Shown here: one piece after another, positions 27,959-32,000 of the stretch
Numbering within the stretch: position 1 is the first letter of the stretch
Layout of the letters: each line of letters opens with the position of its first letter
Assembly: GCA_963786735.1 (NCBI GenBank)
Contig: CAWBAF010000006.1
Coordinates: forward strand, 304,566 to 336,565
Length of the DNA: 32,000 bases
Direction: 5' to 3'
Source: an uncultured beta proteobacterium
GTDB taxonomy: Bacteria > Pseudomonadota > Gammaproteobacteria > Burkholderiales > Nitrosomonadaceae
Notes under the pieces: model-generated
The model's database searches: none
What the model was told of the DNA's origin: nothing
What the model saw: only the letters and a program-made list of their open reading frames with translations
Translations under genes and position numbers: made by a program

Positions 27959-28570
27959 ATGACAGCCACGACAGCCATGACCGTCACCCGCGCGATGCTG
28001 CGGGCAGGCACTGCGATCCTTGTCCTGGCATGGGCTCTGGTCGGAGCCCTTTATGCCGGGGGGGCGGCTGCGCATGGAAAGGAAACCATGGAAGAAGACA
28101 GCTGCAACCGCCGCATTGGCGAGAACATCGTGCACTTGAGCGCCTACCAGCCGCAATTCGACGCCAGCGCCCAATACTGCACCGAAATCCCCAAAGGGGG
28201 AGAAACCTACCTGGTGATCGATCTCATCGACCAGGCCATGCGCGAGATGCCCATTGGCATGCGCGTGATCAAGGGAACGAGCGAAACCGAAGACGAGACG
28301 GTCAGCCTGGTCAAGCCAGACTACCACCCCGACGGCGTGATCCGTGGCGAGTTAAACCTTGACCAGGGGCTCTACACGGTCATCATCACTGCGGAAGGGC
28401 TCCCGCCATTGCGCTACCAGTATCCCCTGCGCGTACAGATGGTCAATTATGCGCAGATATTCCGCACTGCGGTGGTGCCGCTTATCGGCCTGCTGCTGCT
28501 GGCCCTGCTGGGCTACAAGCTCATGAAATCCGAGCGTGTGCGGCGCTGGCGCTCCGCGCGGCGCCCATGA
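27959..28570 (+). CDS. amoE: AmoE (orf4), PmoD/AmoD-family periplasmic protein with signal peptide and C-terminal TM anchor
   Basis: It sits immediately after amoCAB and is a paralogue of the next gene. The two align without gaps over HG-x8-C-x9-H-x3-YQP-x8-C-xx-IP...MP. The C-terminal helix is VVPLIGLLLLALLGY. The start is ambiguous (ATGs at 27959, 27977 and 27995). Confidence 0.85.
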   Translation: MTATTAMTVTRAMLRAGTAILVLAWALVGALYAGGAAAHGKETMEEDSCNRRIGENIVHLSAYQPQFDASAQYCTEIPKGGETYLVIDLIDQAMREMPIGMRVIKGTSETEDETVSLVKPDYHPDGVIRGELNLDQGLYTVIITAEGLPPLRYQYPLRVQMVNYAQIFRTAVVPLIGLLLLALLGYKLMKSERVRRWRSARRP

Positions 28571-28631: not shown

Positions 28632-29213
28632 ATGTTCCAAAAACTCCTGAAACCTGCCCTGCTTAGCCTGCTCCTGTCCATGAGCCTGCCCCATGCAATG
28701 GAGGCGCGCGCCCATGGGGGATTATCCCTGGCCGATGACGTATGCAAACTCACGATAGGCCCCTACACCATGCACTTTACCGGCTACCAGCCGGAAGCCA
28801 CGCAAGAGAAGGAATTCTGCGAAGACATTCCGTTGACCGGGCGCACCGTCGTGGCGCTGGACTACATTGAAGAAGCGCTGCGCCCCATGCCCACCGAAGT
28901 GCGCATCATCCGCGACACCGGCGCACCCGATGTCAAGCCCGCCGATCTGGACAACATTACCATCCTGCACATTCCCCCCAAGGTCTACCCCAACGGCTCC
29001 ATCACCTTCGAATACAACTTCCCGCAACCGGGCAAATTCGTGGGGTTGGTGACCGTAGGCGACAAACAGGAATACGTCTCGCGCTTCCCCTTCTCGGTGG
29101 GTGAACCCAAGGGCACCTCGCCCTTCCTGCTGGGCGCCATCGCGGCCGCGGTGGTGGCCGGGGTGGTATTCTTCCTGCGCGGGCGCAAACCAGCCAAGAT
29201 GAGCACGACCTGA
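28632..29213 (+). CDS. amoD: AmoD (orf5), PmoD/AmoD-family periplasmic protein with signal peptide and C-terminal TM anchor
   Basis: The signal peptide is MFQKLLKPALLSLLLSMSLP. The conserved core reads HGGLSLADDVCKLTIGPYTMHFTGYQP...FCEDIP. The C-terminal helix is FLLGAIAAAVVAGVVFF. It follows amoE in the amoCABED order known from beta-AOB. Confidence 0.87.
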   Translation: MFQKLLKPALLSLLLSMSLPHAMEARAHGGLSLADDVCKLTIGPYTMHFTGYQPEATQEKEFCEDIPLTGRTVVALDYIEEALRPMPTEVRIIRDTGAPDVKPADLDNITILHIPPKVYPNGSITFEYNFPQPGKFVGLVTVGDKQEYVSRFPFSVGEPKGTSPFLLGAIAAAVVAGVVFFLRGRKPAKMSTT

Positions 29214-29324: not shown

Positions 29325-29546
29325 CTTGAACTCCCGGGGCTTAAAACCGGGGCTTGAAACCGAGCCTGGCGGATGAACGCTGGCACCCCCCTTGAGGGGT
29401 AGTCCTTGAGGGTAATAAGGGAAGCGGCAGGGGAGGCAACCCAACGAGGAGCAAGAGATGCAATCATGGACAGTTCCCGCCTTGAAGCGGGCAGGTGGCC
29501 AAGGCCAAAGCCGCCAAAGCGGCCAAAGCCCCATTACCGCCTTGAA
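29325..29546 (+). repeat. array of seven CTT(G/A)A(A/G) motifs, including two short tandem repeats, upstream of and inside the copC 5' end
   Basis: Motif starts are at 29325, 29340, 29353, 29391, 29405, 29481 and 29541. CCGGGGCTT(A/G)AAA occurs in tandem (29334-29346 and 29347-29359). CCTTGAGGG occurs twice (29390-29398 and 29404-29412). Confidence 0.7.
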
Positions 29547-29925
29547 AGGAATCACGCTGGGCGCCGGGCTCATCATCGCGCTTGCGGCAGGCCTGCACAG
29601 CCCCCCTGCCGCCGCGCATGCCATGCTCACCAAGGCCGAGCCTGCGCGCCGCGCCCAGCTCACCCGGCCGCCTGCACAGGTGCGCCTCTGGTTCAACGAA
29701 GAGGTTGAAAAGGATTACGCCGCACTCACCGTCATCCAGGGGGACAAGCCGGTTACCGCGGCCAAGCCCAGGGTTGCCGAAGACGACCCCAAGGCCATCG
29801 TCCTGTCCCTGCCGGAACTTTCCCCCGGGAAATACACCGTGAAGTTCCGGGTGCTGTCGGTGGACGGCCACGTGGTTGACTCGTCCTACGACTTTACCGT
29901 AAAGAGCAAAGTGTCGGGCAAATGA
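29458..29925 (+). CDS. copC: periplasmic copper-binding protein CopC
   Basis: The CopC fold signature is ...AAA|HAMLTKAEP...VRLWFNE...YTVKFRVLSVDGHVVDSSYDFTV. The ATG at 29458 has GAGGA 7 nt upstream. An in-frame TTG at 29542 is an alternative start directly before the signal-peptide hydrophobic core. Confidence 0.88.
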   Translation: MQSWTVPALKRAGGQGQSRQSGQSPITALKGITLGAGLIIALAAGLHSPPAAAHAMLTKAEPARRAQLTRPPAQVRLWFNEEVEKDYAALTVIQGDKPVTAAKPRVAEDDPKAIVLSLPELSPGKYTVKFRVLSVDGHVVDSSYDFTVKSKVSGK

Positions 29926-32000
29926 TCGACGTCGTCGCAACGCTGTTTCGCTGGTTACAGCTTGCGTCCAACATGATCCTGGTCGGGGCCTGCGTATTTC
30001 TGGCCATTGCCGGCTTCTTCCATTCACCCTGGGTCACCCGCCTGCAACGCGCCTTGCCCTGGCTGGGCCTCATCCTGCTCATCGGACTGGTGGGCATCCT
30101 GTCCACCACCACCGCCCAGGCCACCGGCATCGGTGAGAATGCCTGGCGGCTGGATGCCTGGCTCGCCCTCATGAAGAATACCCGCATGGGGCAGATCTGG
30201 ATTGCGCGGGCTGCCTGTGGCCTGGTGGTATTCGCCATTGCCTGCTATTTGCGCTACAGTCCCCCGGCGCGCTGGAAATATATCCTGTGCGCGACTGCCG
30301 CATCGCTCACCCTGACGGTGGGCGCGCTGGCCAGCCATTCGGCCGCCGAAGAGCTCTCGGTCATGTCGATTCTGCCCTACGCCTTGCACATCATCATGGC
30401 AAGCGTATGGTTTGGCGCCCTGCCCGCCTTCCTCGCCGTCTGCTTTGCCTGCACCGAACCCGAGAAGAAAGAGCCTGCGCACCCCGGCCTGCAAACGGAA
30501 GCCATTGCCCGCATCCACGCCCTGTTCCAATCGCGCGAACAGGCGATGGCCGCGGGCGCAATAGCGCTCAAGCGCTTCTCCACCATGGCCCTGCCCGTCA
30601 TGCTGGGCGTCATTGCCACCGGCGTCATCATCACCGACCGCATGGTCGACACGAGCTATAGTGGCCTGGTGGCCACCCGTTATGGCTGGTTGCTCGATGC
30701 CAAGCTTGCGTTGCTGGGGGTCGTGCTGGTGATTGCCGCACGGGCGCGCTCCACCTGGCTGCCCCTGCTTGCCCGGACCACCGAGGGCCAGAACGCCCAG
30801 GCTGGCGGAGAAAAGCTGCGCAAATGGGTGAGTTTCGAATTCCTGCTGGCCATGGGCATTGTGCTGCTTGCCACCATCGTGGCCAATACCGTACCTGCCA
30901 AGCACGCCCTCATCCAGGACTGGCCCTACTCCTTCCGCTTTTCGCTCGCGGCGACCTGGGGCGATCCTGTCGTGATGACCCGGGTATACAGCGGGCTGGC
31001 GCTGCTTGCCGCAGCCATTGCCGCGGTGCTGTTCGGACGCAGCCGGGGCTGGACCGGGAAACTGCGCGCGGGCGTGCCGGCCGTGCTGGCGGTTGCCGCC
31101 TTCGCGGTGGGCCTGCCGCCCCTGGCCGTGGATGCCTATCCGGAAACCTATCGCAAGACCCCGGTGCCCTTCGACACCATTTCGATTGCCAACGGCTCAG
31201 GCCTCTTTGCCGAGAACTGCGTGGCCTGCCATGGCCCCCAGGGCAAGGGCGATGGCGTCATGGCCAAGAGCTTTGCCAAGCCGCCGGTGGACATGCTGAC
31301 CGAGCCGCATACCGCCAAGCATACTGCCGGCGACTTCTTCCACTGGCTCACCTTCGGCATACCGGATACCGGCATGCCCCTGTTTGCCGACAAGCTCAGC
31401 GAAGAAGACCGCTGGGATGTGGTCAACTACCTGCACGCCATGTCGCGGGGCTACCAGGCACGGCTGATGAGTCCCACGGTCAAGCCCGAGCAGCCCCAGC
31501 TCAATATGGGACCGCCCAATTTCTCCTATATCGCCCAGGATGGCTCAAGCGGCACCCTCAAGGATTTCCGCGGCCAGAAGAACGTCCTGCTCGTGCTGTT
31601 CTCCTGGCCGCAATCGCGCGAGCGCCTGCAGGAACTGCAAAGCCTCCATTCCCGGCTTGCCCAGGCCAACACCGTGCTGCTGGCCGTGCCGGAAGATGAC
31701 CTGGCCCCGCAGGACCTGGCCCGCATTGCAGAACTTCCCTTCCCGGTGGTTACCCAGGGCTCGCCCGAGATCGTGCAAAGCTACGCCCTGTTTCGCAGGA
31801 CGCTCTCCAAACCCGATCTCCTGGGAGAAGGCACCCTGCCGCGCCACCTGGAGTTCCTGATCGACCGCTTTGGCTATCTGCGCGCGCGCTGGATACCCGA
31901 TGCCGACGGGCCCGCCTGGAACAATACCGACACACTGCTCAAACAGATCGCCCAGCTCAACCGCGAAAAAGAAATACTCCCCCCACCAGGCGACCATGTG
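29922..32000 (+). CDS. copD: CopD-family membrane protein fused to a c-type cytochrome domain and a Cys-free thioredoxin/AhpC-like domain; 3' end beyond the window
   Basis: It is not in the ORF track. The ATG at 29922 overlaps the copC TGA (ATGA). I translated 693 codons by hand with no stop to position 32000. About 10 hydrophobic segments carry CopD-like SHSAAE and LHIIMASVWFGALPAF. The heme motif CVACH lies at 31218-31232 and GMPLF at 31371-31385. A Trx-fold-like segment FSYIAQDGSSGTLKDFRGQKNVLLVLFSWPQS...FLIDRFGYLRARW follows. Confidence 0.88.
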   Translation, partial: MIDVVATLFRWLQLASNMILVGACVFLAIAGFFHSPWVTRLQRALPWLGLILLIGLVGILSTTTAQATGIGENAWRLDAWLALMKNTRMGQIWIARAACGLVVFAIACYLRYSPPARWKYILCATAASLTLTVGALASHSAAEELSVMSILPYALHIIMASVWFGALPAFLAVCFACTEPEKKEPAHPGLQTEAIARIHALFQSREQAMAAGAIALKRFSTMALPVMLGVIATGVIITDRMVDTSYSGLVATRYGWLLDAKLALLGVVLVIAARARSTWLPLLARTTEGQNAQAGGEKLRKWVSFEFLLAMGIVLLATIVANTVPAKHALIQDWPYSFRFSLAATWGDPVVMTRVYSGLALLAAAIAAVLFGRSRGWTGKLRAGVPAVLAVAAFAVGLPPLAVDAYPETYRKTPVPFDTISIANGSGLFAENCVACHGPQGKGDGVMAKSFAKPPVDMLTEPHTAKHTAGDFFHWLTFGIPDTGMPLFADKLSEEDRWDVVNYLHAMSRGYQARLMSPTVKPEQPQLNMGPPNFSYIAQDGSSGTLKDFRGQKNVLLVLFSWPQSRERLQELQSLHSRLAQANTVLLAVPEDDLAPQDLARIAELPFPVVTQGSPEIVQSYALFRRTLSKPDLLGEGTLPRHLEFLIDRFGYLRARWIPDADGPAWNNTDTLLKQIAQLNREKEILPPPGDHV

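What the first reader, a model, noticed from the sequence alone, without database searches (positions are those of the whole stretch)
31500..32000. Cysteine-free thioredoxin/peroxiredoxin-like domain at the C-terminus of the CopD fusion
The segment PNFSYIAQDGSSGTLKDFRGQKNVLLVLFSWPQSRERLQELQSLHSRLAQANTVLLAVPEDD...FPVVTQGSPEIVQSYALF...RHLEFLIDRFGYLRARWIPD follows the spacing of AhpC/TSA, Redoxin and Sco-type thioredoxin folds. That spacing is beta-strand, 'G-k-x-vvL-vF', active-site turn, helix, 'vlaVs-D', 'fP-l-D' and 'tflID-xG-i'.

At the position where those families carry WCxxC, CxxxC or the peroxidatic Cys, this protein has SWPQSRE. I found no cysteine anywhere in the domain up to the window edge. 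A redox-dead Trx fold fused to a heme domain is unusual. It may be a binding, docking or metal-handling module rather than an oxidoreductase.
Basis: partly seen in the sequence, partly recalled or inferred. Interest (0 to 1): 0.6.

Follow-up and report, generated by a model that had tools for sequence, protein, structure and literature searches.

The report
Cysteine-free peroxiredoxin-like domain on CopD
The last 165 residues of the copper-importer-like CopD protein at the end of this Nitrosospira ammonia-monooxygenase operon form a real peroxiredoxin-type fold that has lost its catalytic cysteine, threonine and arginine, and instead ends in a conserved His-x-His tail, so it is most likely a copper-handling or docking module rather than an enzyme.

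Summary
Residues ~530-694 of the copD product (window 31509-32000) match Pfam AhpC/TSA above its curated cut-off. They fold confidently as a Prx/TlpA/Sco-class thioredoxin fold and contain no cysteine.

The contig ends one base past the window, and only the final His codon and the stop are missing. No hidden cysteines lie beyond the edge.

Profile alignments place Ser565 at the peroxidatic Cys and His642 at the catalytic Arg. The Thr of PxxxTxxC is gone, either deleted (AhpE alignment) or replaced by Trp (BCP alignment).

The loss is family-wide. 232 of 233 full-length homologues have no Cys in this domain and end in H-x-H-COOH. Some lineages carry Met-rich tails instead.

The domain was seen only behind a c-type haem domain, in nearly all cases on a CopD core. 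It is near-universal in Nitrosomonadaceae and common in comammox Nitrospira. It also occurs in Rokubacteria/NC10, Udaeobacter and Acidoferrales.

By sequence it is BCP/AhpE-like, not Sco.

The architecture is already auto-annotated ("…/peroxiredoxin") and is mentioned in one sentence of PMC11923076. This scan noted it earlier on seven other genomes. The Cys-less active site and the HxH arm were not described in anything I found.

Best reading (about 0.5): a non-redox periplasmic copper-handling module. This function is inferred, not shown.

The parts
29922..32000 (+). copD-type gene encoding CopD membrane core, mono-haem cytochrome c and a Cys-free Prx-like domain. It is 693 codons in the window. 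The contig end cuts off the last His codon and the stop.
   Evidence: ORF list; Pfam CopD, Cytochrom_C and AhpC-TSA; contig end; 694-aa orthologue 98% identical
29922..31112 (+). CopD membrane domain, about 10 predicted helices. It holds the invariant His139 (30336-30338) and His156 (30387-30389). I take these as the counterparts of the two YebZ histidines needed for copper uptake, by motif only; no alignment to YebZ was made.
   Evidence: Pfam/NCBIfam CopD; AF2 helices; invariance; YebZ His135/His154 mutagenesis in PMC11923076
31185..31442 (+). Class I cytochrome c domain. CVACH lies at 31218-31232 and the Met485 ligand at 31374-31376. The invariant extra His463 and His467 are at 31308-31322.
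   Evidence: Pfam; conservation; PDB match to T. paradoxus c552
31509..32000 (+). Cysteine-free peroxiredoxin-like (BCP/AhpE-like) thioredoxin-fold domain, residues ~530-694.
   Evidence: Pfam AhpC-TSA residues 532-655; AF2; Foldseek; profile against PDB
31608..31625 (+). Remodelled active-site turn P563-Q-S565-R-E-R568. Ser565 sits at the peroxidatic Cys position. Arg568 sits at the Glu of the Prx C-x-x-E motif.
   Evidence: Alignments to AhpE, 5enu and the genome's own BCP; DNA
31845..31892 (+). Strand-turn-strand H642-L-E644-F-L-I-D648-R-F-G651-Y-L-R654-A-R656-W657. His642 replaces the catalytic Arg. DRxGxxR is retained from Prx.
   Evidence: conservation 94-100%
31980..32000 (+). C-terminal arm P-P-P-G-D-H692-V-(H694). 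The H-x-H-COOH motif is cut by the contig end.
   Evidence: Tails of homologues; contig end
24532..29925 (+). Upstream operon partners: amoC, amoA, amoB, two PmoD-like ORFs (27959-28570 and 28632-29213) and copC (29458-29925, overlapping copD by ATGA).
   Evidence: Pfam AmoC, AMO, Monooxygenase_B and CopC. The two ORFs between amoB and copC have no Pfam match there; the names amoE/amoD are from their position in the published operon layout (PMC6189053)

Best explanation
The domain is a pseudo-peroxiredoxin. It is a BCP/AhpE-derived thioredoxin fold in the periplasm that has lost the peroxidatic Cys (now Ser565), the active-site Thr and the catalytic Arg (now His642). It therefore cannot act as a thiol peroxidase or a disulfide oxidoreductase.

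It is a fixed part of a three-module machine made of the CopD channel, one c-type haem and this domain.

I infer that it serves copper handling. Its rigid PPP-linked C-terminal H-x-H arm (Met-rich in some lineages) would capture copper. His642 and Glu644 in the old active-site pocket may contribute. The arm would present copper next to the haem, which could reduce Cu(II) to Cu(I). Copper would then pass to the two invariant periplasmic His of CopD, or be taken from CopC.

Shown: the fold, the loss of catalytic residues, the conservation, the obligatory fusion and the copper gene context. Inferred: copper binding, the role of the haem and the direction of transfer.
For: **Fold and ancestry.**

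**Catalytic residues replaced.** Cys to Ser565, Arg to His642, Thr lost.

**Family-wide absence of Cys and presence of the H-x-H tail.**
- 232 of 233 full-length homologues have no Cys in the domain and end in H-x-H.
- 109 of 122 representatives (50%-identity clusters) end in H-x-H.
- 368 of 393 soluble modules end in H-x-H.

**Alternative tails are typical periplasmic Cu(I) motifs.** Examples are DMPMG repeats, MGMDMGGMKM and MPMDMHMQMN.

**Tail confidence.** AF2 confidence for the tail rises from 77/54 in the isolated domain to 91/77 in the full-length model, which has pTM 0.81. This suggests the arm docks on another module.

**Obligatory fusion.** The domain was never seen alone. Short hits are gene fragments or frameshift splits.

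**Copper context.**
- copC lies upstream and AMO is copper-dependent.
- A CusF-like gene is the neighbour in Rokubacteria.
- copC is nearby in Acidoferrales.

**CopD histidines.** His139 and His156 are invariant. Mutating the two conserved histidines of the E. coli CopD homologue YebZ reduces or abolishes copper uptake (PMC11923076). That they are the same positions is my assumption from the motif.

**Expression.** CopD orthologues were detected by proteomics in N. multiformis and N. europaea (PMC5960693).
Against: - There is no direct evidence of metal binding.
- The tool gave no AF2 coordinates. The distances between His642, His692/694, His463/467, the haem and CopD His139/156 are unknown.
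- Lineages that lost the H-x-H tail, mainly a Nitrosomonas clade ending ...EYVQ or ...DYVY, keep His642, Glu644 and all the Arg residues. The core therefore has a role that does not need the tail, and no co-loss links them.
- Several invariant core residues can be explained structurally:
  - DRxGxxR is inherited from Prx.
  - Arg568 and Glu644 look like a charge-swapped version of the Prx Glu...Arg pair.
- Three invariant arginines fit an anion or haem-propionate site better than a cation site.
Confidence: 0.5

Rival explanations
1. The domain is a purely structural or docking module. The dead Prx fold packs against the haem domain and the CopD periplasmic face. It may cover an exposed haem edge, with its invariant Arg cluster binding the propionates. 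Alternatively it is the landing pad for a partner such as CopC, AmoD/AmoE or an electron-donor cytochrome. In this reading it binds no metal itself.
For: - The full-length AF2 model has pTM 0.81, and the linker becomes ordered only in the full-length context.
- The invariant residues are mostly Arg, Glu, Asp and Trp: R568, E644, D648, R654, R656, W657 and W666.
- The core is conserved even where the His tail is lost.
- The closest solved relative of the haem domain, T. paradoxus c552, has an unusually solvent-exposed haem.
Against: - It does not explain why the extreme C-terminus is H-x-H in ~95% of sequences.
- It does not explain why the replacements are Met/His-rich copper-type motifs.
- His642 at the old catalytic position is 94-97% conserved.
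Confidence: 0.3
2. The domain is a true Sco1/SenC-type copper chaperone that uses His instead of Cys.
For: - PMC11923076 describes the C-terminal domain of such CopDs as resembling Sco1.
- BsSco is among the Foldseek hits (rank 18).
- hhalign against the genome's own Sco puts His642 on the Sco copper-ligand His, after a 2-residue gap.
Against: - PF02630 does not match the window protein at E<=10, nor any of 22 diverse members at E<=1.
- A PF02630 scan of the genome finds four other loci and not this one.
- hhalign probability is 9.9% for Sco against 74% for BCP.
- The CxxxC motif is absent.
Confidence: 0.04
3. The domain is still catalytic. It could be a haem-assisted or Ser/His-based peroxidase or hydrolase pocket, or a redox domain that borrows a thiol from a partner.
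For: Ser565, His642, Glu644 and Asp648 are conserved near the old active site. The domain is fused to a redox haem.
Against: - I know of no precedent for Cys-independent Prx chemistry.
- Ser565 is only about 76% conserved across representatives. Ala, Thr or Gly replace it in the others.
- No thiol is available in the module.
Confidence: 0.05
4. The domain is a decaying vestige with no function.
For: All catalytic residues are lost.
Against: - About 20 positions are conserved at 90-100% between phyla at 35-45% overall identity.
- The fusion is retained in 119 of 124 good Nitrosomonadaceae genomes.
Confidence: 0.02

Closest known systems
BCP/PrxQ and AhpE peroxiredoxins (Pfam AhpC/TSA, PF00578), e.g. 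M. tuberculosis AhpE (1xvw/1xxu) and S. solfataricus Bcp1/Bcp4
   Same: - They are the best sequence and fold matches.
- The strand and helix order is the same.
- The shared motifs are the FxxD-type start, VLLVFF-like strand 3, fP-v-D and (F/V)LIDRxGxxR..W, including the second conserved Prx Arg (R654).
   Different: - The peroxidatic Cys is Ser.
- The Thr of PxxxTxxC is missing: a 3-residue deletion in the AhpE alignment, Trp in the BCP alignment.
- The catalytic Arg is His.
- The Glu after the Cys is Arg.
- There is an added helix and a PPP-D/E-H-x-H tail.
- The domain is periplasmic and always fused behind a haem domain.
CopD-cytochrome c-'Sco1/thioredoxin-like' fusions noted by Rosenzweig and co-workers (PMC11923076, section 9; they cite M. 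trichosporium OB3b CopD)
   Same: The architecture is the same: CopD core, then a cbb3-type cytochrome c domain, then a C-terminal Trx-like domain. It accounts for ~4% of proteobacterial CopDs. JGI auto-annotation reads 'copper export protein/cytochrome c family protein/peroxiredoxin'.
   Different: The paper gives one sentence and calls the domain Sco1-like. It does not mention the lack of Cys, the residue swaps or the HxH tail. I could not fetch the OB3b sequence to confirm that it belongs to this same family.
Sco1/SenC copper chaperones
   Same: They have a Trx-class fold with an N-terminal hairpin, they are periplasmic, and they handle copper through a pocket at the Trx active site plus a His before the FxxxD-xxG strand. 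His642 lies at or within two residues of that His.
   Different: There is no CxxxC and no PF02630 match. The genome has two real Sco genes elsewhere.
TlpA/ResA/CcmG periplasmic thiol-disulfide oxidoreductases
   Same: Structural matches have TM-scores of 0.60-0.79 when normalised to the target. They are periplasmic and are linked to cytochrome c and CuA maturation.
   Different: The WCxxC position reads SWPQS(R), so no redox-active disulfide is possible.
YcnJ-type CopC-CopD proteins with a C-terminal YtkA/YcnI-like (DUF1775) domain
   Same: This is an analogous design: a CopD channel carrying extra periplasmic copper-related domains (PMC11923076).
   Different: The accessory fold is unrelated and there is no haem.

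Membership tests
Peroxiredoxin (AhpC/TSA, BCP/AhpE type) | Thioredoxin fold of Prx type, recognised by the family model | tested here: met
   PF00578 scores 32.5 bits against a gathering score of 26 and matches 18 of 22 diverse members. AhpE is found at E 1.4e-8. Foldseek probability is 1.00.
Peroxiredoxin (AhpC/TSA, BCP/AhpE type) | Peroxidatic Cys in the PxxxTxxC motif | tested here: not met
   Ser565 lies at the Cys position. The Thr is removed by a 3-residue deletion or replaced by Trp. There is no Cys in the domain in 232 of 233 homologues.
Peroxiredoxin (AhpC/TSA, BCP/AhpE type) | Catalytic Arg on strand beta-6 | tested here: not met
   His642 aligns with AhpE Arg116 and with the Arg of the genome's own BCP.
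Sco1/SenC | Match to PF02630 | tested here: not met
   There is no hit at E<=10 for the window protein. None of 22 members match. The own-genome scan finds four other loci and not this one.
Sco1/SenC | CxxxC copper ligands | tested here: not met
   The sequence reads S-W-P-Q-S.
Sco1/SenC | Conserved His copper ligand before the FxxxDxxG strand | tested here: inconclusive
   hhalign puts His642 on the Sco His only after a 2-residue gap, with probability 9.9%.
TlpA/ResA/CcmG thiol-disulfide oxidoreductases | WCxxC redox motif | tested here: not met
   In the alignment to ResA 4nmu, W is kept, the first Cys is Pro and the second Cys is Arg.
CopD-cytochrome c-Trx-like fusion class (PMC11923076) | CopD core followed by a cytochrome c domain and a C-terminal Trx-like domain | tested here: met
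   Pfam domain order is CopD 215-318, Cytochrom_C 422-507, AhpC-TSA 532-655.
Copper-binding protein | Demonstrated metal site | not testable with these tools
   Only conserved His and Met motifs and gene context are available. The tool gave no model coordinates.

The most novel reading that the evidence does not exclude
The haem c domain, the Cys-free Prx-like domain and its H-x-H arm together form a new kind of periplasmic cupric reductase and metallochaperone. This would be a thioredoxin-fold copper handler that uses His and carboxylate (or Met) instead of Cys. It would take Cu(II) from CopC, reduce it at the haem and feed Cu(I) into CopD. That would supply copper for ammonia and methane monooxygenase assembly in nitrifiers, comammox Nitrospira and NC10.
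Probability: 0.3. Interest if true: 0.75.

Novelty: new variant of a known kind. Interest (0 to 1): 0.5.

Why it matters
How copper reaches ammonia monooxygenase is unresolved. copCD sits at the end of the amo operon in nearly all betaproteobacterial ammonia oxidisers and in comammox Nitrospira.

The oxidation state of the copper that CopD transports is also unknown. In E. coli it could not be assigned (PMC11923076). A CopD with its own haem and a Cys-free Trx-fold domain ending in a His arm offers a direct way to test for coupled reduction and transfer.

The domain is also a clear, widely conserved example of a pseudo-peroxiredoxin. Automatic annotation currently labels it 'peroxiredoxin' or 'redoxin domain-containing protein', which is misleading.

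Tried and rejected
**Steps that failed or gave little.**
- The search for related loci with the 22-member alignment failed because no conserved stretch was found. A closer 8-member alignment worked, but it listed only the 80 best loci, all nitrifiers.
- The listing of cluster members gave almost no organism names for distant clusters.
I have no read-level check of transcription and no extension past the contig end.
- Model coordinates are not exposed. I could not measure distances between the conserved His residues.
- Foldseek of the full-length model found no multi-domain analogue.
- I could not retrieve the M. trichosporium OB3b CopD to test whether the published 'Sco1-like' domain is this same family.

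**Tests with negative results.**
- Stand-alone versions of the domain: the ~165-210 aa hits inspected start inside the cytochrome c domain or at the very start of the Trx-like domain, and the one traced to a long contig is a frameshift split. I found no convincing stand-alone form.
- Co-loss of the HxH tail with His463/His467 or His642: I found none.

**Readings rejected.**
- Sec or stop-codon recoding at the active site: the codon is a plain TCG Ser.
- Sco membership.
Full report
**Where it is**

The window is G000 contig C6:304566-336565, and the contig ends one base after the window. The gene at 29922..>32000 (+) is the last gene of an amo cluster. Pfam identifies amoC, amoA, amoB and copC. 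Two unannotated ORFs lie between amoB and copC (27959-28570 and 28632-29213). By position they correspond to the amoE/orf4 and amoD/orf5 genes of the published betaproteobacterial operon layout (PMC6189053). The closest homologues are Nitrosospira and Nitrosovibrio CopD proteins of 692-723 aa.

**Is the gene complete?**

Homologues end ...ILPPPGDHVH. The protein has 8 Cys. The last two are the haem-binding C433 and C436, and residues 437-692 have none.

**Is it a thioredoxin/peroxiredoxin fold?**

Yes.
- Pfam gives CopD (215-318), Cytochrom_C (422-507) and AhpC-TSA (532-655). AhpC-TSA scores 28.5 bits in the full protein and 32.5 bits for the domain alone, against a gathering score of 26. Redoxin is weaker, and SCO1/SenC does not appear even at E<=10.
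- A profile of 22 diverse domain sequences finds M. tuberculosis AhpE at E 1.4e-8. Bcp4, a Burkholderia BCP, Bcp1 and ResA follow.
- AF2 on a 67-sequence alignment gives pLDDT 88 and pTM 0.86, with the order of strands and helices expected for Prx.
- Foldseek against the PDB gives probability 1.00 for Bcp1/Bcp4, ResA, DsbE, AhpE, BsSco and TlpA. TM-scores are 0.56-0.66 normalised to the query.
- In the organism's own genome this domain is the 12th-ranked PF00578 match. It is not among the four PF02630 matches.
- hhalign of the family profile gives 74% (E 2.8e-5) against the genome's BCP. Against its Sco it gives 9.9% (E 3e-3).

The domain is therefore BCP/AhpE-like and not Sco-like.

**What happened to the active site?**

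Three independent alignments (5enu, AhpE, the genome's own BCP) agree on the following.

| Prx feature | In this protein |
|---|---|
| Peroxidatic Cys | Ser565 (TCG, 31614-31616) |
| Thr of PxxxTxxC | Removed by a 3-residue deletion (AhpE alignment) or replaced by Trp (BCP alignment) |
| Glu three residues after the Cys | Arg568 |
| Catalytic Arg (AhpE Arg116) | His642 |

Fold-determining Prx motifs are kept. These include (F/V)LIDRxGxxR..W, with the second Prx Arg at R654. This is a pseudo-peroxiredoxin.

**Is the loss conserved?**

Yes.
- 114 full-length homologues at >=63% domain identity have no Cys column after the haem motif.
- 121 representatives of 50%-identity clusters show only sporadic Cys. 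One sequence has Cys at each of positions 44 and 46.
- 232 of 233 full-length homologues from two searches have zero Cys in the last 165 residues.
- These positions are conserved at 90-100%, in P0001 numbering: F534, L546, R550, R568, Y621, H642, E644, D648, R649, G651, R654, R656, W657, W666 and E682.

The protein ends in PPP-(D/E/G)-(D/E)-H-x-H-COOH.
- It is present in 232 of 233 full-length homologues.
- It is present in 109 of 122 representatives.
- It is present in 368 of 393 soluble modules.

Where it is absent, two patterns occur.
- Some tails are Met/His-rich, in the style of periplasmic Cu(I) motifs. Examples are ...DMPMGDMPMGNMPMG......MGMDMGGMKM...MPMDMHMQMN and ...DMDMSNMNHDMSDMKM.
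- A mainly Nitrosomonas clade has His replaced by Tyr or another residue (...EYVQ, ...DYVY).

In those sequences the core residues are unchanged. The tail is therefore separable from the core, and I found no co-loss.

In AF2 the tail is poorly defined in the isolated domain. The last two blocks score 77 and 54. In the full-length model of the 98%-identical orthologue P0003 they score 91 and 77. That model has pLDDT 91 and pTM 0.81. This suggests the arm and the linker dock on another module. The tool did not return coordinates, so contacts could not be measured.

**Distribution and architecture**

- A full scan of 1.84 billion representatives gives 393 clusters at E<=1e-3. Among the 150 listed, the 72 sequences of >=600 aa carry the domain at the C-terminus, and 71 of them have a single CxxCH.
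- The short hits inspected are fragments that begin inside the cytochrome domain or at the start of this domain, and one traced to a long contig is a frameshift split. I found no convincing stand-alone form.
- A ~365-375 aa form has two helices, cytochrome c and this domain, without the CopD core. It follows amoAB-orf4-orf5 in one Nitrosomonas MAG.
- 119 of 124 good-quality Nitrosomonadaceae genomes have the domain.
- 534 stretches in species-representative genomes encode it. The best 80 are Nitrosospira, Nitrosovibrio, Nitrosomonas and comammox Nitrospira.
- More distant members are named Rokubacteria, Methylomirabilota/NC10, Udaeobacter, Acidoferrales and Binatia.
- Outside nitrifiers the neighbours are again copper genes. 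A CusF-like gene is next door in Rokubacteria, and copC is nearby in Acidoferrales.

**What is already known**

JGI pipelines name these proteins 'putative copper export protein/mono/diheme cytochrome c family protein/peroxiredoxin'.

PMC11923076 (Commun Biol 2025) covers ~50,000 proteobacterial CopD sequences. [quoted passage not shown] The same paper shows that two conserved periplasmic histidines of the E. coli CopD homologue YebZ are needed for copper uptake. It also reports that the oxidation state during import could not be assigned. His139 and His156 are invariant in this family and I take them as the equivalents by motif, without an alignment to YebZ.

CopD orthologues were detected by proteomics in N. 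multiformis and N. europaea.

My literature searches found no description of the Cys-less active site or of the HxH arm. This scan had already noted the same tri-domain protein on seven other genomes.

**Mechanism**

Shown:
- a periplasmic Prx-derived fold without thiol chemistry (periplasmic because it follows a c-type haem domain with no intervening helix);
- obligatory fusion to a haem, in nearly all cases on a CopD core;
- strong purifying conservation;
- a terminal His or Met arm;
- copper gene context.

Inferred (about 0.5): the domain is a copper-handling module. Its arm, possibly with His642 and Glu644, binds copper next to the haem. The haem could reduce Cu(II) delivered by CopC. The copper then passes to the CopD His pair.

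Main rival (about 0.3): a docking or shielding module. Its invariant Arg cluster (R568, R654, R656) may bind the haem propionates or a partner. Several invariant residues are equally well explained as inherited Prx fold determinants, or as a charge-swapped salt bridge (R568-E644).

A true Sco, a still-active enzyme and a functionless relic are each unlikely, for the reasons given in the Rival explanations section.

**Verdict**

The domain is an uncharacterised but very widespread variant of a known fold in a known fusion class. It is mislabelled 'peroxiredoxin' by pipelines. It is of moderate interest, because it offers a concrete handle on how copper is processed on the way to AMO.

Noticed in passing
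window 31308-31334 (His463, His467, Asp471): The cytochrome c domain carries an invariant P-H-T-A-x-H-T-A-G-D insert, an HxxxH motif conserved at 98%, that is separate from the haem ligands. The closest solved relative, T. paradoxus cytochrome c552, reads E-H-A-P-H-H-S-D-G-D at this place. It is the electron partner of the copper enzyme thiocyanate dehydrogenase, has a solvent-exposed haem and has His-rich termini. This may be a second metal or electron-transfer site.
   Followed up: partly
L100:1-6157 (Nitrosomonas MAG contig, ERZ3422114): Downstream of amoA-amoB-orf4-orf5 there is no copC and no CopD core. There is only a 367-aa gene with two helices, cytochrome c and the Cys-free domain, after a 558-nt gap. 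Its tail lacks the two His (…PPEVYVR).
   Followed up: partly
Proteins P0125, P0140, P0257, P0429 (homologues, not in the window): In these homologues the HxH end is replaced or extended by Met-rich repeats such as DMPMG x6 or MGMDMGGMKM. These are typical of periplasmic Cu(I)-binding segments.
   Followed up: partly
window 32000 / G000:C6:336566: The contig breaks inside the last codon of copD. Relatives often carry 2-3 copies of this gene. The break probably reflects a collapsed repeat of the amo-cop operon, and the assembly shows only one copy.
   Followed up: no
L101:2851-5732: In a long-read metagenome contig the same gene is split by an apparent frameshift into 394-aa and 167-aa calls. 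An IS1595-family transposase follows, and then a second amoCAB.
   Followed up: no
G000:C9:93282-93689 and G000:C6:151354-151749: The genome has two canonical Sco1/SenC genes with CxxxC and His, and at least ten canonical AhpC/TSA-family genes. The usual thiol-based functions are therefore covered elsewhere.
   Followed up: partly
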